Shown: one piece after another, positions 6,867 through 63,975 of the stretch | Position numbering within the stretch: the first letter of the stretch is position 1 | Layout: each line of letters opens with the position of its first letter | Assembly (NCBI RefSeq): GCF_988242995.1 | Contig: NZ_OZ547043.1 | Direction: 5' to 3' (one strand) | DNA: 64,000 bases | The notes under the pieces: model-generated | What the model was told of the DNA's origin: nothing | The model's input: the letters and a program-made list of their open reading frames with translations, nothing else | Database searches by the model: none | Program-made: the position numbers and the translations under genes

Positions 6867-9220
<2,354 letters not shown>

Positions 9221-51309: not shown

Positions 51310-51792
51310 ATGACGAAGAAAAAAGCACATAAACCTGGTTCAGCGACCATCGCGCTTAACAAGCGCGCCCGGCACGAATACTTTATCGAAGAAGAGTTCG
51401 AAGCGGGACTTGCCCTGCAAGGCTGGGAGGTTAAATCCCTGCGCGCAGGAAAAGCCAATATCAGCGACAGCTACGTCCTTCTACGTGATGGAGAAGCATT
51501 TCTGTTTGGCGCTAACATCACGCCAATGGCTGTGGCCTCCACGCATGTGGTGTGCGATCCTACCCGTACCCGCAAGTTACTTCTCAACCAGCGCGAACTG
51601 GACTCATTGTACGGTCGCGTCAATCGAGAAGGCTATACCGTAGTGGCGCTCTCCCTGTACTGGAAAAATGCCTGGTGCAAAGTGAAAATCGGCGTCGCCA
51701 AAGGTAAGAAACAGCACGATAAACGTTCAGATATCAAAGAACGCGAATGGCAGGTGGATAAAGCGCGTATCATGAAAAACGCCCACCGTTAA
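51310..51792 (+). CDS. smpB: SsrA-binding protein SmpB
   Basis: 160-aa ORF directly upstream of the tmRNA gene. Confidence 0.95.
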
Positions 51793-52006: not shown

Positions 52007-52369
52007 GGGGCTGATTCTGGATTCGACGGGATTTGCGAAACCCAAGGTGCATGCCGAGGGGCGGTTGGCCTCGTAAAAAGCCGCAAAAAATAGTCGCAAA
52101 CGACGAAAACTACGCTTTAGCAGCTTAATAACCTGCTTAGAGCCCTCTCTCCCTAGCCTCCGCTCTTAGGACGGGGATCAAGAGAGGTCAAACCCAAAAG
52201 AGATCGCGTGGAAGCCCTGCCTGGGGTTGAAGCGTTAAAACTTAATCAGGCTAGTTTGTTAGTGGCGTGTCCGTCCGCAGCTGGCAAGCGAATGTAAAGA
52301 CTGACTAAGCATGTAGTACCGAGGATGTAGGAATTTCGGACGCGGGTTCAACTCCCGCCAGCTCCACCA
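52007..52369 (+). ncRNA. ssrA: tmRNA (SsrA / 10Sa RNA)
   Basis: 363 nt from GGGGCTGATTCTGGATTCGACGGG to ...CCCGCCAGCTCCACCA; contains the tag reading frame region; tRNA-like 3' end. Confidence 0.96.
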
Positions 52370-52483
52370 CTTGCTCTTCCGGATACGTCCGGAGAAATCC
52401 TGAAAGCCCGCATGGCGCAAGCCCTGTGGGCTTTTTTGTGTCTACCGTTGTCCGAGGATATCCAGCTGAGTCCAGTGATTATT

Positions 52484-52531
52484 GGTATACGTTTAGGTAT
52501 ACGGTAAGATGTATACCTAAATGCGTATACC
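52484..52531. promoter_or_regulatory. Repeat cluster at the int 5' end (GTATAC-containing repeats with an 11-bp inverted repeat); candidate Int arm-type sites or int operator
   Basis: TTTAGGTATAC-N8-GTATACCTAAA perfect inverted repeat (about 52492-52521) abutting the ATG at 52521, plus two more GGTATAC/CGTATACC copies. Confidence 0.45.
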
Positions 52532-53753
52532 AATTCATGAAGGAACGGCCAAAGTGGCAAGAACGACACGTCCCCTGACCAACACTGAAGTTCTGCGCGC
52601 TAAAGCGTTAGAAAAGGATCTAACGTTGCATGATGGCGATGGCCTTTTTCTGCTCGTTAAAACGAACGGTAAGAAATTATGGCGTTTCCGCTACCAAAAG
52701 CCAGTAACAAAACAGCGGACCATGATTAGTTTAGGAACCTTCCCTGCACTATCCTTGGCTGAAATCAGAAATGTGCGAGCTAAGTATCTTTCCTTGTTAG
52801 CCAAGGGGATCGATCCACAAACACACAATGAACAAGTCACACAACAACAACAAATTGCAGTAGAAAGTATTTTTTCAAACGTTGCTAAAAATTGGTTTGC
52901 CATTAAACGCAATAGCGTTACACCTGATTATGCAAAGGATATATGGCGATCCTTAGAGAAGGACATTTTCCCTGCTATCGGAGAGATTCCTGTTCAGGAA
53001 ATAAAAGCACGTATATTAATTGAAGCCCTAGAACCAATTAAGGCCCGCGGTGCACTCGAGACTGTTCGTCGTTTGGTGCAACGTATTAACGAAATTATGA
53101 TCTACGCTGTCAATACCGGATTAATTGAGGCTAATCCTGCGTCAGGTATTGGCATGGCTTTTGATAAACCCAAAAAGCAAAATTTGCCAACGCTGCGGCC
53201 AGAAGAATTACCTAAACTGATGCATTCTCTAGTAATGTCAAACCTGTCTATTCCTACTCGTTGTCTGATCGAATGGCAACTACTGACACTCGTTCGCCCT
53301 TCAGAAGCCTCTGGCGCCCGCTGGGATGAGATCGATTTAGAATCCAAACTTTGGAGAATTCCTGCTGAAAGGATGAAAGCAAAGCGCGAACATATAGTTC
53401 CTTTATCATCTCAAGCTTTAATTATTCTTGAAGTAATGAAACCCATAAGTGCTCATCGTGAACATATATTTCCTAGCAGGAATAACCCTCAAGAACCGAT
53501 GAATAGCCAAACAGCAAATGCAGCATTAAAACGCATAGGGTACGGAGGAAAGTTAGTTGCACATGGACTCCGTTCTATTGCCAGCACTGCATTAAATGAA
53601 GCCGAATTTAATTCTGACATTATTGAATCAGCTCTTGCACATGTTGATAAAAATGAGGTGAGAAGAGCATATAACCGCTCCACTTATCTTGATAAACGTA
53701 AAGAGATGATGGCTTGGTGGGGAAATTTTATATATAAAAATAATTCATTATAA
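52521..53753 (+). CDS. int: Tyrosine recombinase (phage integrase, P4/CP4-57 family)
   Basis: 410-aa ORF with C-terminal catalytic region (HGLRSIAST...LAHVD...RRAYNRSTYLDKR); real start may be the downstream GTG (about 52551, reading VARTTRPLT). Confidence 0.88.
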   Translation: MRIPIHEGTAKVARTTRPLTNTEVLRAKALEKDLTLHDGDGLFLLVKTNGKKLWRFRYQKPVTKQRTMISLGTFPALSLAEIRNVRAKYLSLLAKGIDPQTHNEQVTQQQQIAVESIFSNVAKNWFAIKRNSVTPDYAKDIWRSLEKDIFPAIGEIPVQEIKARILIEALEPIKARGALETVRRLVQRINEIMIYAVNTGLIEANPASGIGMAFDKPKKQNLPTLRPEELPKLMHSLVMSNLSIPTRCLIEWQLLTLVRPSEASGARWDEIDLESKLWRIPAERMKAKREHIVPLSSQALIILEVMKPISAHREHIFPSRNNPQEPMNSQTANAALKRIGYGGKLVAHGLRSIASTALNEAEFNSDIIESALAHVDKNEVRRAYNRSTYLDKRKEMMAWWGNFIYKNNSL

Positions 53754-53764
53754 AAGGTATTACA

Positions 53765-54799
53765 ATGAATATTGATTCTATAAAACTTCATTTACAAAAT
53801 TTTTTCACAAATAATCCAACTGTTCTTATCGGTTCTGGCCTCTCTCTCGGTGAGGGGATTCCAGGTATGAAAACATTGGGAGAACATCTTAATACAACTA
53901 TCCCCAAATTAGTAAGCGGGGATCTTATAAGAGAATGGGGTATCATAAGTTCCAAACTAAATAATGGTATGGGACTTGAAGATGCCATGGCATTTCTTAA
54001 AGATGAAAGTGAACTTATCCCATTAATTATTCAGCACACCGCAGATCTTATTTTAAAGCATGAAAATACTGTAATATGCTCTGTAATCAATGGAGAAAAA
54101 AATCTAGCATTTACATCTTTATTGAATCACTTAACTTTTAATCAAAATGAATTGATAATTATAACTCCAAACTATGATAGACTAATTGAAATAGCATGTG
54201 AAATTGCTGGTCTAGAAATTTCAACAGGATTTATCAATAGTTATCATTGTATAAATAATCCTGAAGTTGAGTTAGATAAATTCAAAATCACCCACTCTAT
54301 CAAAACCACACGAGGTAAATCTACAGTTCAAATTAGAACTAAAAAACACGTTAAAATATTTAAACCTCATGGTAGTCTTGATTGGTTCAAGGCTGACGAT
54401 AAAATTATCAGGACCAGCTTTCAAAATAAACATAAAAGATTAATTATTACACCAGGTACAAGTAAATTCAGAGCTGGATATCAGCAGCCTTTTGATTGGC
54501 ATAGAGAAAAAGCAAACCATTATATCAAAAGAGCAAAATCACTATTAATTATTGGCTATGGGTTTAATGATGAGCAGTTAGAAGTACATTTGAAATCAAA
54601 AATACGTGAAAAAATACCTGTTTTATTAATGACATATGAATTGACATCAAACGCTCAAAAAATATGTGATGATAATCCTTCTATAACATATGTTATTGCA
54701 GAAGGAAACAATTCCATCGTTTGTATCGATGGCATTAAATATAAAATCGAAAAGAATATTTGGTCTTTAAATGAGTTTGTTAAAGAGGTACTTAAATAA
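53765..54799 (+). CDS. SIR2-like NAD+-binding protein (predicted NADase effector); cargo gene 1
   Basis: 344-aa ORF. Gly-rich NAD-binding loop VLIGSGLSLGEG, TPNYD motif (catalytic Asn codon 54170-54172), KPHGS motif (His codon 54367-54369) and second Rossmann motif IIGYGFND. Low GC; stop overlaps next gene's start (TAATG). Confidence 0.8.
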   Translation: MNIDSIKLHLQNFFTNNPTVLIGSGLSLGEGIPGMKTLGEHLNTTIPKLVSGDLIREWGIISSKLNNGMGLEDAMAFLKDESELIPLIIQHTADLILKHENTVICSVINGEKNLAFTSLLNHLTFNQNELIIITPNYDRLIEIACEIAGLEISTGFINSYHCINNPEVELDKFKITHSIKTTRGKSTVQIRTKKHVKIFKPHGSLDWFKADDKIIRTSFQNKHKRLIITPGTSKFRAGYQQPFDWHREKANHYIKRAKSLLIIGYGFNDEQLEVHLKSKIREKIPVLLMTYELTSNAQKICDDNPSITYVIAEGNNSIVCIDGIKYKIEKNIWSLNEFVKEVLK

Positions 54800-56583
54800 T
54801 GGAATATTACGTCATTAACACTGATGAAACATGCTTTATCGGACGAATCGCAAATGTTGATACCGATCGTGCTATTATCATTTCAGAGTCTCCAGAGATC
54901 ATACAAGAACTAACCGTTTTTGACTTGGTTGCTATTGAAGGCAATACCCCCACAGAGTTTCTTGTTGGTATCATTGAAAAAGTAAAACGCTCTATTGGAG
55001 AAATACAAACTATTGATACTGAAGAAAATATTGAAGATGACAGTGAAAAAGATTTCGATAATATCTTCCAAACTTATTCTATCGATCATGATATTCTTCA
55101 AGTAGCTCTTATCGGCACTTTCTGGGAGGTTTACGGGGATAGAAGGAAAATTTTTAAAAGAGGAGCACAATATTTTCCAAAAGTTGAAAAACAAGCATTT
55201 CTTATAAAAAAAGACAGTCTTGAGAAATTAATGTCGGCAGTCGACAATGATACTCCTGATGAGCTAAAACTCATACTAGGCAACTATGGAAATACCAATT
55301 CACGAGCAGTTGCAAATGGGGATAAATTATTTCAGAGACATGCTGCCCTATTGGGGAGTACTGGTTCAGGTAAAAGTTGGACAGTTGCGTCATTACTAGA
55401 ACAAGCCTCAAAATTAAAATACAACAATATTGTACTTTATGATCTTCATGGTGAATACAAAACTTTATCTGATACACATAATAAATCGAACCGCCCGAGC
55501 ATAGCCGATTATTTTAAAATTGCAAGCCCAGGAAATATCGACGATGTAAATAGTATTTATGTACCTCATTGGTTATTAAACAAAGAAGAAATGCTATCAC
55601 TGTTGTTAGATAGAAGCGATAGCAATGCACCTAATCAGGCAGCAAGATTTAGCTACCACGTGAGAGAGCTAAAAAAAGAATACATCACACACAACAGATT
55701 AATACACTTAGAAGATTGTTTGACTGTTGATGCTCCAATACCCTACTCTATCGAGGATCTTATTAGCAGACTGCACGATGATGATCAAGGTATGAAAAAA
55801 GGTACTAATAATAAAGAAATAAAAGGTGATTGGAATGGAAAACTAACAAGATTCATAAGCAGGTTAAGAACAAAAGTAGACGACAAGAGGAACTGTTTTC
55901 TATTCTCAAATAAACCAGAACACAACCAATATGATTGGTTGGAGAAATACGCTTGTAAAATTTTAAAATCAGATAGCACAGATCATGGCATTAAAATAAT
56001 TGATTTTTCTGAAGTTCCTTCAGATATTATGCCTATTGTTATTGGTGTATTGACCAGATTTTTATACAACGTCCAATTTTGGAGATGTGAGACCGAACGA
56101 ACCCCTATAGCATTCGTTTGTGACGAAGCTCATATTTATTTACCCGCTAAGGATACCACTGAGGCTGAAACAAAAATATCCTTATCAATATTCGAGAAAA
56201 TTGCTAAAGAAGGCAGAAAGTACGGAGTATCTTTATTAGTCGTCAGCCAAAGACCTTCTGATGTTAGCAGAACAATACTAAGTCAATGTAATAACATAAT
56301 TTCTCTCAGACTAAGTAATTATAGAGATCAACAGGTAGTTAGTCGGTTAATGCCTGATTCATTGAGTTCATTAACATCCATACTACCAATTCTTGATACT
56401 GGGGAAGCAATAGTTCTTGGCGACTCTGTTCTATTACCAGCTAGAATAAAATTGAATCCACCAACACTCAAGCCCGATAGCGCAACCAGAGCTTTTTGGA
56501 ATGAGTGGGGGGCAATTGAAGCAAAAGAAATCTCTATAGCAAATGCTGTTGAATCACTCAGGAGACAATCTCGTAATCGCTAA
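54799..56583 (+). CDS. HerA/FtsK-type ATPase; cargo gene 2
   Basis: 594-aa ORF. Walker A GSTGSGKS (Lys codon 55372-55374), Walker B FVCDEAH (56122-56133), and KEGRKYGVSLLVVSQRP arginine-finger region typical of HerA. Translationally coupled to the SIR2-like gene. Confidence 0.8.
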   Translation: MEYYVINTDETCFIGRIANVDTDRAIIISESPEIIQELTVFDLVAIEGNTPTEFLVGIIEKVKRSIGEIQTIDTEENIEDDSEKDFDNIFQTYSIDHDILQVALIGTFWEVYGDRRKIFKRGAQYFPKVEKQAFLIKKDSLEKLMSAVDNDTPDELKLILGNYGNTNSRAVANGDKLFQRHAALLGSTGSGKSWTVASLLEQASKLKYNNIVLYDLHGEYKTLSDTHNKSNRPSIADYFKIASPGNIDDVNSIYVPHWLLNKEEMLSLLLDRSDSNAPNQAARFSYHVRELKKEYITHNRLIHLEDCLTVDAPIPYSIEDLISRLHDDDQGMKKGTNNKEIKGDWNGKLTRFISRLRTKVDDKRNCFLFSNKPEHNQYDWLEKYACKILKSDSTDHGIKIIDFSEVPSDIMPIVIGVLTRFLYNVQFWRCETERTPIAFVCDEAHIYLPAKDTTEAETKISLSIFEKIAKEGRKYGVSLLVVSQRPSDVSRTILSQCNNIISLRLSNYRDQQVVSRLMPDSLSSLTSILPILDTGEAIVLGDSVLLPARIKLNPPTLKPDSATRAFWNEWGAIEAKEISIANAVESLRRQSRNR

Positions 56584-56608
56584 TAAAAATATTATCTAGC
56601 AACGCGCA

Positions 56609-56627
56609 GTGCTTTCCCCGCCTCGCC
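56609..56627 (-). other. P2/P4-type cos site (19-nt cohesive end sequence)
   Basis: Window reads GTGCTTTCCCCGCCTCGCC, the exact reverse complement of the P2/P4 cohesive end GGCGAGGCGGGGAAAGCAC as recalled; flanked by GC-rich dyads. Confidence 0.8.
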
Positions 56628-56791
56628 CGCCCGCTTTGCGGGGCGGTTTCAGTGCAGTTGCACTGACACGCTCAGGCCGCGCCGGGAATGGCGCGGTCTG
56701 CAGAAAATGAGGCAGGAAAACGCATGCAAAGCCATGCACCTTATCGATGCATGGCTTTTTTCAGTAAAAACGGGCGGATTTTCGGGGAATT

Positions 56792-57364
56792 TTACACAGA
56801 CTGATGTGATGCCAGTTGCGCACTTTTACGCGAAAAAATCATGTTCTGCGCAGGAGTGAATTTTTCACGGCTGTCATCCACCGAAGCCGCGTCAGGCCTG
56901 AATCCGATGGTCGTTAAAATGTCGCTATCCTGTGCGGAATAATTAATTTTTTCACCCTTCGCAAGCCAGGACTGGAGGGCTTCACGCAGGGCATCTGTGG
57001 CACGCTGTATGGCACAGTTTCGGGCAATGGCCGTCAGCTCACTGTAGCCCATCAGCTCCGGTGCCAGTGCCGCCGCCAGTGCTGTGCCGTGCTGCTGCAT
57101 AAAATCATTCAGCCGGTCGCGGATGCTGATGTGCTGAACGGCTTCATGCGAACGAATATAACGACCGGCGGCCTGATTCACCTGCCATTTTCTGACTTCG
57201 ATAATATTGCGTAATTCGTCCAGGCGACTGACGTTTCTGCCTTCTCCTGACAGAAGCCGCAGGTATTCCTGTTCGGCCGCTGCCAGCTCATTTTTGCGTT
57301 GCAGCCATGCTGCTTTGTTATTCTGACAGGTGTCAAAGGCCTGCTGTAAGGCTGTGCTTTCCAT
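56792..57364 (-). CDS. psu: P4 Psu-like protein (polarity suppression / capsid decoration)
   Basis: 190-aa ORF, the same length as P4 Psu, in the conserved psu-delta-sid order next to cos. Confidence 0.75.
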   Translation of the reverse strand: MESTALQQAFDTCQNNKAAWLQRKNELAAAEQEYLRLLSGEGRNVSRLDELRNIIEVRKWQVNQAAGRYIRSHEAVQHISIRDRLNDFMQQHGTALAAALAPELMGYSELTAIARNCAIQRATDALREALQSWLAKGEKINYSAQDSDILTTIGFRPDAASVDDSREKFTPAQNMIFSRKSAQLASHQSV

Positions 57365-57437
57365 CGTTATCTCTTTCTCATCATGCTGAAGAATAAAAAT
57401 ACGGTGTGCGGCGACGGCCGGTGTTAACCGGCAGCCC

Positions 57438-57938
57438 TCATTCCAGACGCAGCGAATATGATTGTGTTTTTAACCGTACTGGCGGCAGTTCCTGTTTTTC
57501 ATGCAGGCGTTCTGCCAGTTCGTCCGGCGTGACCGGGCGGACAATGAAACGGTTGATGGTCTGAAGCGTTTTAAACACCAGACCACAGCCCGGATCCGTG
57601 CACACATAAAAACGCTCGGTGACTTCCTGAGACAGACGCCGCGATGTTCTTGACAGTGCAAGGCCTTTACATCTCCGACAACAATATCCGGTAACAAGCA
57701 TTCTTTTCGGCCGTTTCATACTGCCGGAGGCTGACGTCAGTGAATCGCGGTATCTCTGTTTGCCTGAAATGTATTCCATTCCTGAATCTTTACAGTCAGA
57801 GAAAAAGCTTTCACTCGCTTCAAATGTCGCAGAGCAATAAATATTCCGGCACTGTGCAATCATTATCTTGGTGCCATCGTCCATGAAATGTGCGCGACGG
57901 GTGTGAGCAACATGTCCACACGACGGGCAGTAAATCAT
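57438..57938 (-). CDS. delta: P4 Delta-like late-gene activator (tandem Ogr-type zinc fingers)
   Basis: 166-aa ORF with two C-x2-C...C-x4-C zinc-finger units (MIYCPSCGHVAH...CRNIYC and YCCRRCKG...CTDPGC). Confidence 0.85.
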   Translation of the reverse strand: MIYCPSCGHVAHTRRAHFMDDGTKIMIAQCRNIYCSATFEASESFFSDCKDSGMEYISGKQRYRDSLTSASGSMKRPKRMLVTGYCCRRCKGLALSRTSRRLSQEVTERFYVCTDPGCGLVFKTLQTINRFIVRPVTPDELAERLHEKQELPPVRLKTQSYSLRLE

Positions 57939-58669
57939 GACAGCAGCCCTCTGGCCTTAAGCTCTGCTCCCTGCTGGTCTATTTTGTCCTGCCACACCTT
58001 GCGCTGTGCCGGTGTGCCTGCCACCTCATAATCCATGTGCGGGAGTGTTGCCGCTGACAGTCCGGCCAGCCGGAGAACCGGCTCGCCGGTGAGGCTGATT
58101 TGCATCTGTTTTATTTTCTGTTCCAGCGATGATTTCACCTGCTGCATGACAGCCTTTTCCGGCGCGACGTAGCCCTGATGGCCGGTGGTGTTGGCGAGCG
58201 GATTTTCCTGTACCAGGATGCTCAGATGCATTGCCCGGACAAGCGCCTCACAGGTTTCATTCAGGGCGTGTTCCAGCTCATGCTCTGCATACAGACTCAG
58301 CAGGTGATGATGTGCCTTCCGGTAGGCGGTGGCCGTGCTGTCACACGCCCCTTTCAGGCGTTCACATTCAAAATTCAGCACCACGGCCAGATTGTCATAT
58401 TCCTGTACCAGCTCCCGGCGTGCCACGCGCTCAATGTGGCGCTGTTTCAGCTCATCGCTCAGGACACCACCGGCTGCACGAAAGGCCGTGCGCCAGTCGT
58501 CAGCGTCGTTTCCGTCGGCCTGCGTCAGCGCATTTTTTTCCTGCTCTGCCCGTTCAATGGCCGTGATGGTCTCATCCATCAGGCGGGCGTTCTCAAGATG
58601 AGCGGCTCTGGCCTTTTCCAGTTGTGCCAGCGCGGGTTGCAGATATTCAGGGATGGTGTTGTCAGACAT
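57935..58669 (-). CDS. sid: P4 Sid-like external scaffold (capsid size determination) protein
   Basis: ORF track gives 266 aa; start trimmed to MSDNTIPEYLQPALAQLEK (244 aa, the P4 Sid length) with RBS; coiled-coil-rich. Confidence 0.75.
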   Translation of the reverse strand: MSDNTIPEYLQPALAQLEKARAAHLENARLMDETITAIERAEQEKNALTQADGNDADDWRTAFRAAGGVLSDELKQRHIERVARRELVQEYDNLAVVLNFECERLKGACDSTATAYRKAHHHLLSLYAEHELEHALNETCEALVRAMHLSILVQENPLANTTGHQGYVAPEKAVMQQVKSSLEQKIKQMQISLTGEPVLRLAGLSAATLPHMDYEVAGTPAQRKVWQDKIDQQGAELKARGLLS

Positions 58670-58703
58670 TTTCCGGCTCCTCGTCACTTCAGGTTGAGAA
58701 AAT

Positions 58704-58759
58704 TGTGACGTACACCGGACAACAACACGACGCATTGCAGATGTGCCAGCCCTGACACA
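58704..58759. promoter_or_regulatory. Two TGT-N12-ACA dyads; candidate Delta/Ogr activator sites for the divergent late promoters (Psid / PLL)
   Basis: TGTgacgtacaccggACA (58704-58721) and TGTgccagccctgacACA (58742-58759) match the P2/P4 late-promoter activator element TGT-N12-ACA. Confidence 0.55.
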
Positions 58760-58838
58760 GGAGACTCATCCTCAGACCGGCAAGCCAGGAAAAGGTCGCA
58801 GGAAAAACCGGCTTACTGTTTGTTTTTTTATATTTTAC

Positions 58839-58942
58839 TGTTCACCTCTGTTCACCTTAAGAAAAAAGATAAGTAATACAGTAAGTTAAAGGATGAACAA
58901 TCGCAGTAATGACTGTTCACCGTCTGTTCACCACTGTTCACC
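58839..58942. repeat. Candidate P4-type replication origin (ori) iteron cluster
   Basis: Five direct copies of TGTTCACC (58839, 58849, 58914, 58925, 58935) plus a degenerate inverted copy; about 4.8 kb from the crr repeats, as in P4. Confidence 0.7.
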
Positions 58943-59221
58943 CGCTCATGGACTTTTTGTGCTGTTTACTACTGTTTGTTTTTATTAATTCGCCGGGAAT
59001 GAATAAGAAGAAACGATTTGTATTTCACTATAAAAATTACGAATTGCTTTAAGTGGCTTTAAATGACTTTAAGTGGAGATGAACAAAAAATACACAAGCA
59101 TTGTAAGGCTGCCGGAACAAATCCCCCCTGTTGCGTCTGCCGAAAATATTCACAAAATAAAGCGCTACCCGAAGCCGGACGGACTTATCCGGTGCTGTAT
59201 GGACATTAACGAGGTAGCCCG

Positions 59222-59488
59222 ATGCAATCTGTTTTTTCTTCCCCGTCTCCCGCCCCAGTGACGCCACTGATGCCGCTGCCGGACATCACGCAGGAGCGTT
59301 TTTTACGTCTGCCGGAAGTGATGCACCTGTGCGGCCTGTCACGCTCGACCATCTATGAACTTATCCGTAAGGGGGAATTTCCGCCGCAGGTGAGTCTTGG
59401 CGGTAAAAATGTGGCCTGGCTGCACTCTGAAGTCACCGCATGGATGGCCGGGCGCATTGCCGGACGCAAACGGGGGTACGACGCATGA
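59222..59488 (+). CDS. vis: AlpA/Vis-family helix-turn-helix regulator
   Basis: 88-aa ORF with AlpA-type HTH ([27 protein letters not shown]), the length of P4 Vis. Confidence 0.75.
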
Positions 59489-60084
59489 TGATGCCCGCTC
59501 TGCAAAAAGTCCCTTTTTCTGGCTTGCCTTTTTCCGGCATTTGCGGATATAGTTTTTCCGCTGCCGCAAAATCGGCAGCCGGGCGTGGAAACCCGAGTAT
59601 GTTATCGGCGACATATGACGCGCCATGCGTCTTTTTTTGTGTCGCAATCAACGCCACAGAGCGCCAGATTATGGTGTGGTGTGTGGTCAGTCGAGCAAAT
59701 GGCACTCCGTGCATTCTGCCCGCGTCCGCTCATTATACCGCAGAGTCAATGGTAGCTCAGGCGGGGCAGCCTCCGCGCTGGCCGGTTTCCGATAACGCCG
59801 GTATTTCCACCCCCGTCTGGGCTATCGCCATCGAGCGTGGAAACTCCGGCGATAGCGTCATTTACGCTGTTATCGGAGGTTGCCTTATGGCTACGACCCT
59901 TATCCCCTCACACCCTGAATTTGTCTTTGTGTTTGCGGCTGTCCGTCGCGCAGACCGTCATCCCCGTATCTGTATGCTTCGCACCGTCGCCGGTGATGAA
60001 CGCAGCGCCCGCCGTTCCCTTGTCCGTGACTATGTGCTCTCCCTTGCTGCCCGTCTGCCGGTGGTGGAGGTGTCCCGTGCGTAA
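59485..60084 (+). CDS. Hypothetical protein, P4 orf199-like (coding status uncertain)
   Basis: 214-aa ORF trimmed to an internal Met to give 199 aa; Ala/Pro-rich and GC-rich, so it could instead overlie the RNA-based immunity locus. Confidence 0.35.
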
Positions 60085-60364
60085 TAAAAAAGCCCCTCAG
60101 ACCGTCTCAGCACGTCATGACGCCCGTGAACACCTCAGCATTGAGGCTTACCATAAGCTCAACCGCGCCAGCGCCGTATCCCAGTTTGTTGGGGGTGATT
60201 TGATTCACCGTGAACTCTCCGGCCTGCATCAGCTCTACATTCCGCATATTTTCAGCTACCTGAATGAAGATATTGATTTTGTGCTGAATGAGCTGAAAGC
60301 CAAAGGCCTGTGCCGCGATTTTCTCGCCCAGCAGAAAGACCGGGGAGACAGGACGCATGTTTGA
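60077..60364 (+). CDS. Hypothetical protein, P4 epsilon-like (possible helper-prophage derepressor)
   Basis: About 95 codons from a putative GTG start within ORF 59837-60364 ([25 protein letters not shown]...); size and position match P4 epsilon. Assignment is by analogy only. Confidence 0.4.
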
Positions 60365-60812
60365 TTTTCCCCAGCCCGGTGAGATTTACCGTTCTGCCGG
60401 TTTTCCCGATGTGGCCGTGGTCGGCATTCTGGAAGACGGTATTCCGTGGGAAATGCCGTACCGCTGCCCGGACATTGTCTGGAACCCGTACCGCCGTAAA
60501 TTCAGTATCCTTGTGCGTATCCTCGCTGACGGGCGCACCACAGACATCCCGCTGGGGCGTTTTCTGCGGGAATTTACCTGTGACCGTCCTGACCTGTTTA
60601 AACGCAGCCCCGTAAACCGGCATGCGGTACTGAAAGAAATGGCCGGAGACCCGGAATTACAGAAATGGCGGGAGAAATATCTGGATATTTACCCGCAGGA
60701 CCCTGTTCCGGTCAGCCGGGCGGCACCGGTGGCGCGGGAATGGCGGGAAATTCCCCGCACGGAGCCTGACCCGGAAACCACCCCGGATAACAGTTACCGC
60801 AATTATCTGTAA
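60357..60812 (+). CDS. Hypothetical protein, P4 orf151-like
   Basis: 151-aa ORF whose start overlaps the previous ORF's stop; position upstream of alpha as in P4. Confidence 0.6.
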   Translation: MFDFPQPGEIYRSAGFPDVAVVGILEDGIPWEMPYRCPDIVWNPYRRKFSILVRILADGRTTDIPLGRFLREFTCDRPDLFKRSPVNRHAVLKEMAGDPELQKWREKYLDIYPQDPVPVSRAAPVAREWREIPRTEPDPETTPDNSYRNYL

Positions 60813-60947
60813 TTAAAAAACGACACCCGAAAAATTAAATGTGCGTATTCGCGCAGGGATACGCACGTCTTCAGGAGACGCAGATATGCCTTATCAGTTA
60901 ATGCAACCGGCACGGAATGCAGTCATCTGTCACAGGGAGGAAAACAA

Positions 60948-61268
60948 ATGAAAACACCCTTACCGCCCGTCTTACGCGCTGCCCTTTACCGTCGCGCTGT
61001 CGCCTGTGCCTGGCTGACCGTGTGCGAACGTCAGCACCGCTACCCGCATCTCACCCTTGAGTCACTGGAGGCGGCCATCGCCGCTGAGCTGGAAGGCTTT
61101 TATCTGCGCCAGCACGGTGAGGAAAAAGGGCGTCAGATAGCCTGTGCCCTGCTGGAAGATTTAATGGAATCCGGCCCCCTGAAGGCCGCGCCGTCGCTGT
61201 CCTTTCTCGGGCTGGTTGTGATGGATGAACTCTGTGCCCGTCACATAAAAGCGCCGGTACTGCACTGA
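60948..61268 (+). CDS. Hypothetical protein, P4 orf106-like
   Basis: 106-aa ORF directly upstream of the alpha gene. Confidence 0.55.
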
Positions 61269-61282
61269 AGGAGAACAACACC

Positions 61283-63616
61283 ATGAAAATGAACGTAACC
61301 GCCACCGTCAGCCATGCGCTCGGCCACTGGCCGCGTATTCTCCCGGCGCTGGGGATTCAGGTGCTGAAGAACCATCATCAGCCCTGTCCGGTCTGTGGCG
61401 GGAGTGACCGCTTCCGTTTTGATGACAGGGAGGGGCGCGGCACCTGGTACTGCAATCAGTGTGGTGCCGGTGACGGCCTGAAACTGGTTGAAAAGGTGTT
61501 TGGTGTCTCCCCGTCCGACGCGGCCGCAAAGGTGGCTGCCGTGACCGGCAGTCTGCCCCCGGCTGACCCGGCAGTGACGGCTGCCGCCGTTGCTGAAACA
61601 GACGCTGCCCGGAAGAACGCCGCCGCACTGGTACAAACCCTGATGGCAAAAACCCGTCCCGGAACCGGTAACGCCTACCTGACCCGCAAGGGCTTTCCCG
61701 GCCGGGAATGCCGGATGCTGACCGGCACACACAGAGCCGGTGGCGTGAGCTGGCGCGCCGGTGACCTTGTGGTGCCACTGTATGACGACAGCGGCGAACT
61801 GGTTAACCTTCAGTTAATCAGTGCTGACGGCCGTAAGCGCACCCTGAAAGGCGGACAGGTCAGGGGCACCTGTCACACCCTTGAAGGACAGAATCAGGCC
61901 GGAAAACGTCTGTGGATAGCGGAGGGATACGCGACCGCACTTACCGTGCATCACCTGACCGGTGAAACGGTGATGGTGGCGCTTTCTTCCGTGAATCTCC
62001 TTTCTCTGGCCAGCCTTGCCCGGCAGAAGCATCCGGCCTGTCAGATTGTCCTTGCTGCTGACCGTGACCTCAGCGGTGACGGCCAGAAAAAAGCCGCCGC
62101 AGCCGCAGATGCGTGTGAAGGTGTTGTTGCCCTGCCGCCGGTCTTCGGTGACTGGAATGATGCCTTCACGCAGTACGGCGGGGAAGCCACCCGTAAGGCC
62201 ATTTATGATGCCATCCGGCCACCGGCTGAAAGCCCGTTCGACACCATGAGCGAAGCGGAGTTTTCCGCCATGAGTACCAGCGAAAAGGCCATGCGTATCT
62301 ATGAGCATTACGGCGAGGCGCTCGCGGTCGATGCCAACGGCCAGCTTCTGTCCCGCTATGAAAATGGTGTCTGGAAGGTGCTGCCGCCACAGGACTTTGC
62401 CCGGGATGTGGCCGGGCTGTTTCAGCGTCTGCGAGCGCCGTTCTCCTCCGGGAAGGTGGCCTCCGTGGTGGACACCCTGAAGCTGATTATTCCGCAGCAG
62501 GAAGCCCCCTCCCGCCGCCTGATTGGCTTTCGTAACGGCGTGCTCGACACGCAGAACGGCACGTTCCACCCGCACAGTCCGTCACACTGGATGCGCACCC
62601 TGTGCGATGTGGATTTCACCCCGCCGGTGGACGGTGAAACGCTGGAAACCCACGCCCCCGCCTTCTGGCGCTGGCTTGACCGTGCCGCCGGTGGCCGTGC
62701 GGAAAAACGCGACGTGATTCTGGCTGCACTGTTTATGGTGCTGGCAAACCGCTACGACTGGCAGCTCTTTCTGGAGGTGACCGGTCCCGGCGGCAGCGGC
62801 AAAAGTATCATGGCCGAAATCGCCACCCTGCTGGCCGGGGAGGATAACGCCACGTCGGCCACCATCGAGACGCTGGAATCCCCGCGTGAACGTGCCGCGT
62901 TAACTGGCTTCTCACTGATACGCCTGCCGGATCAGGAAAAATGGAGCGGCGACGGTGCCGGACTCAAGGCCATCACCGGCGGCGATGCGGTGTCCGTTGA
63001 CCCGAAATACCGGGATGCGTACTCCACGCACATCCCGGCGGTGATTCTGGCCGTGAACAATAACCCGATGCGCTTCACCGACCGCAGCGGCGGCGTGTCA
63101 CGCCGGCGGGTGATTATTCACTTCCCGGAACAGATAGCCCCGCAGGAGCGCGACCCGCAGCTTAAGGACAAAATCACCCGCGAGCTGGCGGTCATCGTGC
63201 GTCACCTGATGCAGAAGTTCAGCGACCCGATGCTCGCCCGGTCACTGCTTCAGTCCCAGCAGAACTCAGACGAGGCACTGAACATCAAACGGGATGCCGA
63301 CCCGACGTTTGATTTTATCGGCTATCTGGAAACCCTGCCGCAGACCAGCGGCATGTATATGGGGAACGCCAGTATCATCCCGCGTAATTACCGTAAATAC
63401 CTCTATCACGCCTATCTGGCCTACATGGAGGCAAACGGCTACCGGAATGTACTCAGTCTGAAAATGTTCGGACTGGGGCTGCCGGTGATGCTGAAAGAAT
63501 ACGGGCTGAATTACGAGAAGCGCCATACCAAACAGGGGATACAGACCAACCTGACGCTGAAAGAAGAAAGCTACGGCGACTGGCTGCCAAAATGTGACGA
63601 CCCTGCAACAGCCTGA
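61283..63616 (+). CDS. alpha: P4 alpha-type replication protein (zinc-finger primase - TOPRIM - helicase - ori-binding)
   Basis: 777-aa ORF (P4 alpha length). N-terminal zinc finger CPVCGGSDRFRF...WYCNQCG, TOPRIM-like acidic patch (AADRD), helicase Walker A (TGPGGSGKS). Confidence 0.88.
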   Translation: MKMNVTATVSHALGHWPRILPALGIQVLKNHHQPCPVCGGSDRFRFDDREGRGTWYCNQCGAGDGLKLVEKVFGVSPSDAAAKVAAVTGSLPPADPAVTAAAVAETDAARKNAAALVQTLMAKTRPGTGNAYLTRKGFPGRECRMLTGTHRAGGVSWRAGDLVVPLYDDSGELVNLQLISADGRKRTLKGGQVRGTCHTLEGQNQAGKRLWIAEGYATALTVHHLTGETVMVALSSVNLLSLASLARQKHPACQIVLAADRDLSGDGQKKAAAAADACEGVVALPPVFGDWNDAFTQYGGEATRKAIYDAIRPPAESPFDTMSEAEFSAMSTSEKAMRIYEHYGEALAVDANGQLLSRYENGVWKVLPPQDFARDVAGLFQRLRAPFSSGKVASVVDTLKLIIPQQEAPSRRLIGFRNGVLDTQNGTFHPHSPSHWMRTLCDVDFTPPVDGETLETHAPAFWRWLDRAAGGRAEKRDVILAALFMVLANRYDWQLFLEVTGPGGSGKSIMAEIATLLAGEDNATSATIETLESPRERAALTGFSLIRLPDQEKWSGDGAGLKAITGGDAVSVDPKYRDAYSTHIPAVILAVNNNPMRFTDRSGGVSRRRVIIHFPEQIAPQERDPQLKDKITRELAVIVRHLMQKFSDPMLARSLLQSQQNSDEALNIKRDADPTFDFIGYLETLPQTSGMYMGNASIIPRNYRKYLYHAYLAYMEANGYRNVLSLKMFGLGLPVMLKEYGLNYEKRHTKQGIQTNLTLKEESYGDWLPKCDDPATA

Positions 63617-63649
63617 CCCACCTGACCGGCATCTGCCGGTCTTTTTTTA

Positions 63650-63975
63650 TCCCTGAATCCCCCGAAGGTGAACAATCCAGTGTTCACCCTTCACCGTATA
63701 TTCACCCGTTATCACACTGAAATTAAAAGAGAAAAACGAAAGGTGAACAGTGTGAACAATCAAATCAAAAAAAACTTTTTTTCTTCCTGTGTGATTTTCA
63801 GCACGGGAAATTAATCCCCTGCACAAGTCACACCGGCAGAATGCCGGAGGTGAAGAATCGAATGTTCACCCTTCACCCATTATTCACCACCTATCACTCT
63901 GAAATAAAAGGAGAAAACAGAAAGGTGAACAGTGTGAACAGTTCTTTCGAAAAAAAATTTTTTTCCTGTACGATA
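63650..63975. repeat. crr-like cis replication region: two direct repeats of about 130 bp, period about 185 bp, each carrying TGTTCACC/GGTGAACA iterons
   Basis: Repeat 1 (about 63660-63790) and repeat 2 (about 63845-63970) align nearly base for base (ggtgaacaatccagtgttcaccc... versus ggtgaagaatcgaatgttcaccc...); located just 3' of alpha. Confidence 0.75.

What the first reader, a model, noticed from the sequence alone, without database searches (positions are those of the whole stretch)
53700..53800. Cargo operon begins only 11 bp after the integrase stop
The int stop (53753) and the SIR2-like start (53765) are separated by 11 bp, so the cargo promoter must lie inside the int 3' coding region or the operon is read through from int. 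The int 3' end becomes markedly AT-rich just before the stop (aaattttatatataaaaataattcattataaaagg), which may reflect a promoter and RBS brought in with the cassette. This marks a likely cassette boundary.
Basis: inference. Interest (0 to 1): 0.35.

Follow-up and report, generated by a model that had tools for sequence, protein, structure and literature searches.

The report
Integrase edge of P4 defence hotspot
The tight, AT-rich junction is the integrase-side edge of the already known defence-gene hotspot of P4-like phage satellites, here carrying a known SIR2-HerA system that is probably transcribed together with the integrase gene rather than from its own promoter.

Summary
The int stop (53751-53753) and the SIR2 ATG (53765) are 11 nt apart, and 53724-53764 is 9.8% GC, the lowest 41-nt stretch in int or cargo.

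The element is a P4-like satellite integrated at E. coli ssrA. Its gene order is int, SIR2, HerA, cos, psu, delta, sid and so on to alpha. This int-psu/cos interval is the published P4 defence hotspot, and SIR2+HerA is a listed occupant.

I compared 89 related loci carrying many different cargos:
- **Boundary.** Conserved int ends at the ...MxWWG codon (53721-53723), and the GC change point falls at 53723. The last 9 int codons and the stop belong to the variable block, 53724-56602. Identity to P4 (98%) resumes at 56603, just before cos.
- **Crossovers.** Exchange breakpoints lie 0-240 nt inside the int 3' end, as expected for homologous recombination rather than a fixed cassette site.
- **Promoter.** No sigma-70-like site at the junction exceeds chance, and co-directional elements are no more promoter-like there than convergent ones.
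- **Terminators.** 32 of 39 convergent cargos have a GC hairpin at the int stop. None of the 37 co-directional ones has a credible terminator.

I infer that SIR2-HerA is read through from the int promoter. This was not measured. The feature is ordinary and already known, with some new detail on its fine structure.

The parts
52007..52369 (+). ssrA (tmRNA). Its 3' end is the integration site (attL side) of the satellite.
   Evidence: ARAGORN tmRNA with tag ANDENYALAA. The same smpB-ssrA-int order occurs in E. coli RefSeq genomes.
52419..52443 (+). Element-borne hairpin plus T-run directly after ssrA. It would insulate int from ssrA transcription.
   Evidence: Terminator-like site AAGCCCTGTGGGCTT followed by TTTTTGTG; sequence read.
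52472..52535 (+). Candidate int promoter region. It holds TTGGTA-17-TAAGAT (52482-52510) and four GGTATAC/GTATACC repeats that span the int start and are probably Int arm-type sites.
   Evidence: Highest-scoring + strand sigma-70-like site of 52370-53775, score 8.5, which is not above the shuffle maxima. Repeats read directly. That they act as binding sites is an inference from P4 Pint autoregulation (Piazzolla 2006, as cited in PMC2951348).
52521..53723 (+). Conserved body of the tyrosine integrase (arm-binding, central and catalytic domains), ending at the ...MMAWWG codon.
   Evidence: Pfam Arm-DNA-bind_3, Phage_int_M and Phage_integrase. Eighty-nine related loci show 75-85% aa identity, with matches ending at residues 401-410. 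Per-column conservation.
53724..53753 (+). Variable int C-terminal tail (NFIYKNNSL) plus stop. It is the first 30 nt of the variable, low-GC block.
   Evidence: Column identity falls to 0.30-0.54 at +0..+14 and to about 0.3 beyond. The GC change point is at 53723. Tails differ with the cargo and are shared when the cargo is shared.
53754..53764 (+). 11-nt spacer with the ribosome binding site AAGG (53754-53757) directly after the int stop. It contains no terminator.
   Evidence: Sequence. The RNA fold of 53700-53800 is not structured, z=-0.55. No + strand terminator-like site is found here. AAGG/AAAGG is conserved in six lineages.
53765..54799 (+). SIR2-family gene of a SIR2-HerA anti-phage system.
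   Evidence: Pfam SIR2_2 4e-11. PADLOC SIR2 PDLC04082 1e-124, full length.
54799..56583 (+). HerA-family ATPase gene. Its start overlaps the SIR2 stop (TAATG).
   Evidence: Pfam DUF87/HerA 4e-30. PADLOC HerA PDLC04105 9e-210. Overlap read.
56584..56602 (.). Last 19 nt of the variable block. Identity to P4 begins at 56603.
   Evidence: blastn of the window against P4 NC_001609: 56603-63963 is 97.9% identical to P4 from coordinate 25, across cos, to 4291.
56609..56627 (-). cos cohesive-end sequence (GGCGAGGCGGGGAAAGCAC on the minus strand). It marks the right limit of the hotspot.
   Evidence: Exact match found. It lies across the ends of the P4 genome. Rousset 2022 describes the hotspot as directly adjacent to cos.
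56730..56761 (.). 9-bp GC-rich hairpin (AGCCATGCA...TGCATGGCT) followed by T6 on the + strand. It lies just downstream of the psu 3' end, inside a structured block that also holds other hairpins. It is the first hairpin with a T6 run downstream of int on the + strand, and probably serves as a bidirectional terminator.
   Evidence: Sequence. The fold of 56584-56780 gives z=-5.0 and includes this hairpin. The tool scan missed it because its loop is 9 nt (criteria). Its function is inferred.
56792..57364 (-). psu, the first conserved backbone gene on the far side of the hotspot.
   Evidence: Pfam Psu 7e-89. 98% identical to P4.

Best explanation
Position 53724 is the integrase-proximal edge of the int-cos/psu defence hotspot of a P4-like satellite integrated at ssrA.

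**The boundary.** Functional constraint on Int ends at the WWG codon (53721-53723). Everything from 53724 to 56602 is exchangeable cargo DNA of low GC. This block holds the last nine int codons, the int stop, the ribosome binding site, SIR2 and HerA.

**Exchange.** Cargo blocks are swapped between satellites by homologous recombination. One crossover lies somewhere in the conserved int 3' end and the other on the cos/psu side. Each block therefore brings its own int tail and stop codon.

**Expression (inferred).** In this element the SIR2-HerA pair is built as a 3' extension of the int transcription unit:
- it has the same strand as int;
- there is no terminator or stable structure at the junction;
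- the ribosome binding site starts directly after the int stop;
- the SIR2 and HerA genes overlap (TAATG);
- the first hairpin with a T6 run on the + strand lies beyond cos, at about 56730-56761.

The most likely expression route is read-through from the int promoter just upstream of int. By analogy with P4 this promoter is Int-repressed, which would give low steady expression in the lysogen. The extreme AT-richness at the junction is best read as unconstrained tail sequence plus an unstructured translation-initiation region, not as a promoter. The exact 11-nt gap is incidental.
For: **Identity of the element.** The order smpB-ssrA-int-SIR2-HerA-psu-delta-sid...alpha is shown. The backbone 56603-63963 is 97.9% identical to P4 across cos. 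The cargo matches PADLOC SIR2 at 1e-124 and HerA at 9e-210. The hotspot, and SIR2+HerA as an occupant of it, are published (PMC9122126).

**Boundary.**
- In 76 non-redundant relatives, mean pairwise column identity is about 0.7 up to 53723. It is 0.34-0.54 for the next five codons and about 0.3 (chance) beyond.
- The GC change point is at 53723.
- AT content rises from 59% to 74% at this point across the whole family.

**Exchange by homologous recombination.**
- Pairs that share a cargo but have divergent int bodies show the near-identical block reaching 0, about 90, about 180 and about 240 nt into int (L018/L026, L003/L014, L023/L033, L029/L050).
- L041/L048 carry different cargo. Their int is 97% identical until about -150, 77% up to the anchor and about 30% after it.

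**Read-through.**
- Convergent first cargo genes have a GC hairpin at or overlapping the int stop in 32 of 39 cases.
- Only 6 of 37 co-directional elements score a hairpin. All six use the TGGTGGGG codons themselves and none has a T-run. Fisher p=1e-8; mean fold energy -25.8 versus -16.2 kcal/mol.
- About half of the co-directional cargos start within roughly 55 nt of the WWG codon, and several overlap the int tail.
- The window junction is unstructured, z=-0.55.
- No junction promoter exceeds chance, and there is no enrichment in the co-directional class.
- All SIR2 homologues at 60% identity or more (Pantoea cypripedii and five metagenomic lineages) sit 11-24 nt after an int of this type. 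A 55% homologue outside a satellite has a 620-nt upstream region.
- Three SIR2-HerA lineages that share only about 23% identity all sit co-directionally, 7-12 nt after int.
Against: - No transcript data exist. Read-through is inferred from anatomy alone.
- P4 Pint is negatively autoregulated. A defence operon that depends only on it might therefore be weakly expressed.
- Weak or non-canonical promoters cannot be excluded by consensus scans in AT-rich DNA. One example is TTGGTG-19-AATAAT at 53714-53744.
- In published work, hotspot systems next to int were active from fragments carrying only about 95 nt of the int 3' end. Those systems had 55-140-nt intergenic regions, and one of them was inactive from its native sequence.
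- The 76 loci are phylogenetically related, so the Fisher p-value overstates independence.
- My hairpin detector and first-ORF calls are simple heuristics.
Confidence: 0.6

Rival explanations
1. SIR2-HerA has its own promoter. It is embedded in the last roughly 100 nt of int coding sequence and/or the AT-rich tail. The -35 element would lie in conserved int (for example TTGGTG from the WW codons), and the -10 element would be supplied by the cassette.
For: - The tail is 90% AT.
- Weak candidates exist: TTGGTG-19-AATAAT and TTTATA-16-TATAAA.
- Rousset et al. obtained activity from 'native promoter' clones that began about 95 nt inside int for a co-directional system.
- Defence genes are usually expressed independently of the lysogeny state of the element.
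Against: - The candidates score 4-5 bits, against a mean of 9.6 for the best site in shuffles.
- None passes the tool threshold on the + strand.
- Junction scores do not differ between co-directional and convergent elements (p=0.71).
- The putative -10 is not conserved in six lineages of the same cassette: TATAAA, TACAAC, TATAAC and TATAAG, all lacking the key final T.
- A -10 at 53749 would place the transcription start inside or after the ribosome binding site.
Confidence: 0.3
2. There is no cassette boundary. The int C-terminal tail is simply an unconstrained, fast-drifting peptide, and its AT-richness reflects mutational bias.
For: - The tail length varies (5-25 codons) even within one cassette lineage, through small indels.
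- A weak xFVxK motif persists for about 5 codons after WWG, so the protein does continue a little past the anchor.
Against: - Tails are near-identical whenever the cargo is shared, even where the int body is only 84-90% identical (L003/L014, L023/L033, L029/L050).
- Tails are unalignable when the cargo differs, even where int is 93-97% identical (L041/L048).
- The step in GC at 53723 continues through 2.9 kb of cargo.
- In many convergent elements the tail codons form the terminator hairpin belonging to the cargo.
Confidence: 0.07
3. The junction is a site-specific cassette insertion point, like an integron attI/attC, with a promoter inside the integrase gene driving captured cassettes.
For: - It resembles an integron superficially.
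- The limit of homology is sharp, at one codon.
Against: - Cargo occurs in both orientations in similar numbers (37 versus 39).
- Crossover points are scattered over 240 nt of int.
- Int is a P4/CP4-57-type arm-binding phage integrase that targets ssrA.
- The other edge of the block is the conserved cos/psu backbone rather than a repeat.
- There is one cargo block per element, not an array.
Confidence: 0.02

Closest known systems
Defence hotspot between int and psu/cos of P4-like satellites (Rousset et al. 2022, PMC9122126; Moura de Sousa et al. 2026 preprint 10.64898/2026.02.27.708500)
   Same: The gene order is the same (int, variable cargo, cos, psu-delta-sid). The backbone is 98% identical to P4. 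SIR2+HerA is explicitly listed among the known systems found in this hotspot. Rapid swapping of cargo between otherwise similar elements is described.
   Different: Term searches of these papers found no mention of where the int-side limit of homology lies, of breakpoints, of cargo orientation or of terminators. The terms 'breakpoint', 'terminator' and 'orientation' each gave 0 hits in the 2026 preprint. Here the limit is mapped to the WWG codon, so the int tail is cargo-encoded, and a link between orientation and terminators is seen.
Phage P4 itself: the int-cII-beta-gop region (NC_001609)
   Same: In P4 the first gene after int (cII) is also co-directional with int. It is followed by an annotated terminator and then by the convergent beta and gop genes. 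The block lies between int and cos.
   Different: - The P4 int is a different lineage; no nucleotide similarity was detected over int (its leuX integration site is from general knowledge, not tested here).
- The int-cII gap in P4 is 66 nt rather than 11 nt.
- The cargo is gop-beta-cII rather than SIR2-HerA.
SIR2-HerA anti-phage system (Gao et al. 2020; also called Nezha; named here from my own knowledge and)
   Same: It is a two-gene operon, with a SIR2-family protein followed by a HerA-family ATPase and overlapping genes. Both proteins give full-length high-scoring matches to the PADLOC SIR2 and HerA models.
   Different: Nothing in the cargo departs from the family as far as tested. Activity (NAD+ depletion, defence phenotype) was not tested here. 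The cargo is not the subject of the finding.
Phage 'morons' (autonomous accessory gene modules with their own promoter and terminator)
   Same: It is an accessory, low-GC, non-essential gene block inserted between conserved genes of a mobile element.
   Different: Classical morons carry their own promoter and terminator. This block shows neither at the int side. It appears to borrow the int transcript upstream and a backbone terminator downstream.

Membership tests
P4-like satellite | Core genes psu, delta, sid, alpA/vis-like, epsilon/cI region and alpha primase, plus an integrase, in P4 order | tested here: met
   Pfam hits to Psu, Ogr_Delta and the primase domains, in the expected gene order. 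97.9% nucleotide identity to P4 over 7.36 kb.
P4-like satellite | P2/P4-type cos site adjacent to psu | tested here: met
   Exact GGCGAGGCGGGGAAAGCAC at 56609-56627 on the minus strand.
P4-like satellite | Integration at a tRNA/tmRNA gene, flanked by attL and attR | tested here: inconclusive
   int lies 152 nt after ssrA, the same site as in many E. coli genomes. attR lies beyond the window end (64000), so the direct repeat was not checked.
P4 int-psu defence hotspot occupant | Variable gene block located between int and cos/psu, differing between related elements | tested here: met
   Eighty-nine related loci carry dozens of unrelated cargos at the same place. The variable block is 239-3854 nt long where cos was found, and 2885 nt in the window.
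SIR2-HerA defence system | Adjacent SIR2-family and HerA-family genes in one operon | tested here: met
   PADLOC SIR2 1e-124 and HerA 9e-210, both full length. The genes overlap by 1 nt.
SIR2-HerA defence system | Anti-phage activity / NADase activity | not testable with these tools
   This requires an experiment.
Integron-like cassette system | Site-specific cassette recombination sites (attI/attC), with a fixed junction and a uniform cassette orientation | tested here: not met
   Both orientations occur (37 versus 39). Crossovers are spread over 0-240 nt of int. The right edge is backbone homology.
Autonomous moron | Own promoter upstream and own terminator downstream of the accessory genes | tested here: not met
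   No promoter-like site above chance at the junction. No terminator lies between HerA and cos; the first hairpin with a T6 run is in the backbone at 56730-56761. This rests on consensus and structure prediction only.

The most novel reading that the evidence does not exclude
In P4-like satellites the hotspot's left edge would be the last essential codon of Int. Every incoming cargo block would then have to supply the Int C-terminal tail and stop codon, plus one of two things: a bidirectional terminator if it is convergent, or a ribosome binding site and start codon fused onto the int transcript if it is co-directional.

Co-directional defence operons such as this SIR2-HerA would thus be wired into the Int-autoregulated int promoter. 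That would couple the defence dose to the integration state of the satellite. Very different SIR2-HerA lineages would have converged on this arrangement because it gives low, safe expression of a toxic NADase within the tight P4 packaging limit.
Probability: 0.4. Interest if true: 0.4.

Novelty: already known. Interest (0 to 1): 0.22.

Why it matters
The direct value is in annotation and engineering. The limits of the exchangeable block are 53724-56602. Anyone cloning such systems 'with their native promoter' from co-directional positions may leave the real promoter (Pint) behind. That could explain inactive clones.

If read-through is confirmed, defence expression in a sizeable fraction of P4-like satellites would be tied to integrase regulation. 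In this sample about half the elements have co-directional cargo. This would be a modest but testable addition to how hotspots are organised. It does not change the current understanding of hotspots or of SIR2-HerA.

Tried and rejected
- **Close relatives with other cargo.** Megablast and blastn of the junction and of the cargo against 5,426 complete E. coli genomes found only one genome with the same int plus cargo (EC21GDE043). There were no other close copies. The breakpoint for this particular cassette could therefore not be mapped from near-identical ints. I used 75-85% relatives from IMG/VR and RefSeq instead.
- **Promoter prediction.** The tool consensus scan and my own approximate sigma-70 weight-matrix scan, whose frequencies were entered from memory, gave nothing above chance at the junction. 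I treat this as weak negative evidence only.
- **Phylogenetic footprinting.** Alignment of the junction in six lineages of the same cassette showed a conserved ribosome binding site and start. It showed no conservation beyond that of the neighbouring coding sequence.
- **The 11-nt gap as a special feature.** Rejected: relatives have gaps of 12-24 nt.
- **Integron-like reading.** Rejected; see the membership test.
- **Classical P4 transcription data.** Ghisotti et al. 1990 (PMC249035) is not held in the library. Whether P4 cII is co-transcribed with int remains unknown to me.
- **Antisense promoter.** A minus-strand promoter-like match at 53754-53725 was judged a chance hit in AT-rich DNA and was not pursued.
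Full report
**What is there**

The window around the finding is the E. coli smpB-ssrA locus: smpB at 51310-51792 and the tmRNA gene at 52007-52369. A P4-like satellite follows:

| Feature | Coordinates | Strand |
|---|---|---|
| int | 52521-53753 | + |
| SIR2_2-domain gene | 53765-54799 | + |
| HerA/DUF87 ATPase gene | 54799-56583 | + |
| psu | 56792-57364 | - |
| delta | 57438-57938 | - |
| sid | 57935-58735 | - |
| alpha primase | 61283-63616 | + |

The stretch 56603-63963 is 97.9% identical to phage P4 itself, running from P4 coordinate 25 across cos through psu...alpha to the crr region. The cos sequence lies at 56609-56627. The two cargo proteins match the PADLOC SIR2 and HerA models over their full length, at 1e-124 and 9e-210.

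**Check of the observation**

The int stop TAA is at 53751-53753 and the SIR2 ATG at 53765, so the spacer is 11 nt. The interval 53724-53764 has 4 G/C in 41 nt (9.8% GC). The int body has 42% GC and the cargo 30-36%. No other 41-nt window in either is as poor in G/C. A likelihood change-point for GC falls at 53723.

The SIR2 start is well supported by profile alignment from residue 1. It is also supported by a conserved ATG behind a conserved AAGG-type ribosome binding site in six homologous lineages.

**Is it a cassette boundary?**

Only one of 5,426 complete E. coli genomes (EC21GDE043) has the same int and cargo. However, 425 genomes have a full-length int of the same family at 75-80% nucleotide identity, and IMG/VR supplied 80 further loci.

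In these loci the space between int and psu holds many unrelated gene sets on either strand. Examples are a P-loop NTPase, DUF2326, HEPN+DUF262, ABC-three-component proteins, DUF4435+ATPase and other SIR2-HerA pairs.

I anchored all loci on the invariant ...MxWWG motif. In the window the G codon is 53721-53723.
- Mean pairwise column identity in 76 non-redundant sequences is about 0.7 through the int body.
- It is 0.34-0.54 over the next five codons, a weak xFVxK motif.
- It is about 0.3, the chance level, from about 53739 onward.
- AT content rises from 59% to 74% at the same point across the whole family.

The int tail after WWG is 5-25 codons long and differs with the cargo. So the last nine int codons, the stop and the spacer belong to the variable block, 53724-56602.

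**Where do the exchanges happen?**

I looked at pairs of elements that share a cargo but have divergent int bodies. In these pairs the near-identical segment extends into int by different distances:

| Pair | Reach into int |
|---|---|
| L018/L026 | 0 nt |
| L003/L014 | about 90 nt |
| L023/L033 | about 180 nt |
| L029/L050 | about 240 nt |

L041 and L048 carry different cargo. Their int is 97% identical until about -150, 77% from there to the anchor, and unrelated beyond it.

This is the signature of homologous recombination within the conserved int 3' end. The partner crossover would lie on the conserved cos/psu side. It is not the signature of a fixed site-specific junction. Position 53723/53724 is the limit of homology, where constraint on Int ends, rather than the crossover point itself.

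**How is the cargo expressed?**

Only 41 nt separate the conserved int sequence from the SIR2 ATG (36-48 nt in the five related lineages). That is too short for a promoter plus a leader with a ribosome binding site. Four lines of evidence favour read-through.

1. *No convincing promoter.*
   - The tool scan lists no + strand site near the junction.
   - In my weight-matrix scan the best junction candidates score 5.0 and 4.4. The best site in shuffled sequence averages 9.6.
   - The top-scoring + strand site of the whole int region is TTGGTA-17-TAAGAT at 52482-52510, just upstream of int. It sits among four GGTATAC/GTATACC repeats that look like Int arm sites.
2. *No class difference.* Junction promoter scores are the same in co-directional elements (5.42) and convergent elements (5.59), p=0.71.
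3. *An orientation-dependent terminator.*
   - 32 of 39 elements whose first cargo gene converges on int have a GC-rich hairpin at or overlapping the int stop. In several of these the hairpin is encoded by the tail codons themselves.
   - Only 6 of 37 co-directional elements score a hairpin. All six are weak stems built from the TGGTGGGG codons, with no T-run.
   - Fisher p=1e-8, and mean fold energy is -25.8 versus -16.2 kcal/mol.
   - The window junction is unstructured, z=-0.55.
   - The first + strand hairpin followed by a T6 run is at 56730-56761, in the backbone beyond cos.
4. *Operon-like packing.* The ribosome binding site AAGG starts directly after the int stop. The SIR2 stop and HerA start overlap as TAATG. 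About half of the co-directional cargos in the family start within roughly 55 nt of the WWG codon, and some overlap the int tail.

P4 int transcription is reported to be negatively regulated by Int and Vis (Piazzolla 2006, as cited in PMC2951348). Read-through would therefore give low, regulated expression. All of this is inference from anatomy. No transcript data were available.

**The specific cassette**

All SIR2 homologues with 60% identity or more lie directly after an int of this type, with gaps of 11-24 nt. These are Pantoea cypripedii CP024768 and five metagenomic lineages. A 55% homologue lies elsewhere, with a 620-nt upstream region.

In three of these lineages int ends at a TAG aligned with an out-of-frame TAA in the window. 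A 1-nt length difference just before that triplet moves the window's stop 12 nt downstream. The figure of 11 nt is therefore incidental.

Two other SIR2-HerA lineages share only about 23% identity with the window's SIR2. They occupy the same position and orientation, 7-12 nt after int.

**Comparison with what is known**

The int-psu hotspot adjacent to cos, its rapid cargo turnover and SIR2+HerA as an occupant are all published (PMC9122126; 2026 preprint). P4 itself has a co-directional gene (cII) 66 nt after int, then an annotated terminator and convergent genes.

Term searches of these papers found no mention of three details:
- the int tail lies inside the variable block;
- crossovers are scattered within the int 3' end;
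- terminators depend on cargo orientation.

Rousset et al. cloned int-proximal systems with about 95 nt of the int 3' end as the 'native promoter'. Those systems had 55-140-nt intergenic regions, and one was inactive until driven by Ptet.

**Verdict**

The idea of a cassette-borne promoter is not supported, and read-through from int is favoured but unproven. The feature belongs to a well-described system, so interest is low. It offers a modest, testable point about how co-directional hotspot cargo is expressed.

Noticed in passing
window 52472-52535: Four copies of GGTATAC/GTATACC (two direct, two inverted) bracket the candidate int promoter and the int start codon. They are probably Int arm-type binding sites that overlap the promoter, as described for P4 Pint autoregulation.
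   Followed up: partly
window 52370-53753 versus 56603-63963: The satellite is a mosaic. The backbone from cos to crr is 98% identical to P4 at 55.5% GC. The int module (42% GC) shows no nucleotide similarity to the P4 int and targets ssrA. The int/att module has therefore been swapped as well as the cargo.
   Followed up: partly
L007 6235-9107; L029 6240-9160; L036; L061; L072: Two further SIR2-HerA lineages (SIR2 of 371 and 385 aa) share only about 23% identity with the window's SIR2. They occupy the same slot, on the same strand, 7-12 nt after the int stop. This suggests repeated capture in one preferred arrangement, or very old residency.
   Followed up: partly
L003 about 7200-7235, L012, L013, L066 and others (int stop regions): In elements with convergent cargo, the last int codons themselves form the stem of a hairpin that looks like a bidirectional terminator. 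In L003, for example, the stem is AGGTTTGTTT and AAACAAACCT around a 4-nt ATAA loop. In strain N17 the int stop codon abuts the stop of the convergent gene with 0 nt between them.
   Followed up: partly
L093, L094, L095 (metagenomic contigs): The int upstream of a 76%-identical SIR2-HerA pair is broken into two or three ORFs, while SIR2 and HerA remain intact. This looks like a decaying satellite that retains its defence genes.
   Followed up: no
L004 and L087 (E. coli GPEC1035, RM10740): An int of the same family (80-83% aa identity), with a P4-like satellite, lies directly after another prophage's integrase (yfdP/yfdQ/yfdR region) rather than next to ssrA. This indicates a second integration site or tandem insertion.
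   Followed up: no
window 52419-52443: A hairpin plus T-run lies 50 nt after the ssrA 3' end, inside the satellite. The element seems to supply a replacement terminator for ssrA, which would also shield int from ssrA transcription.
   Followed up: no
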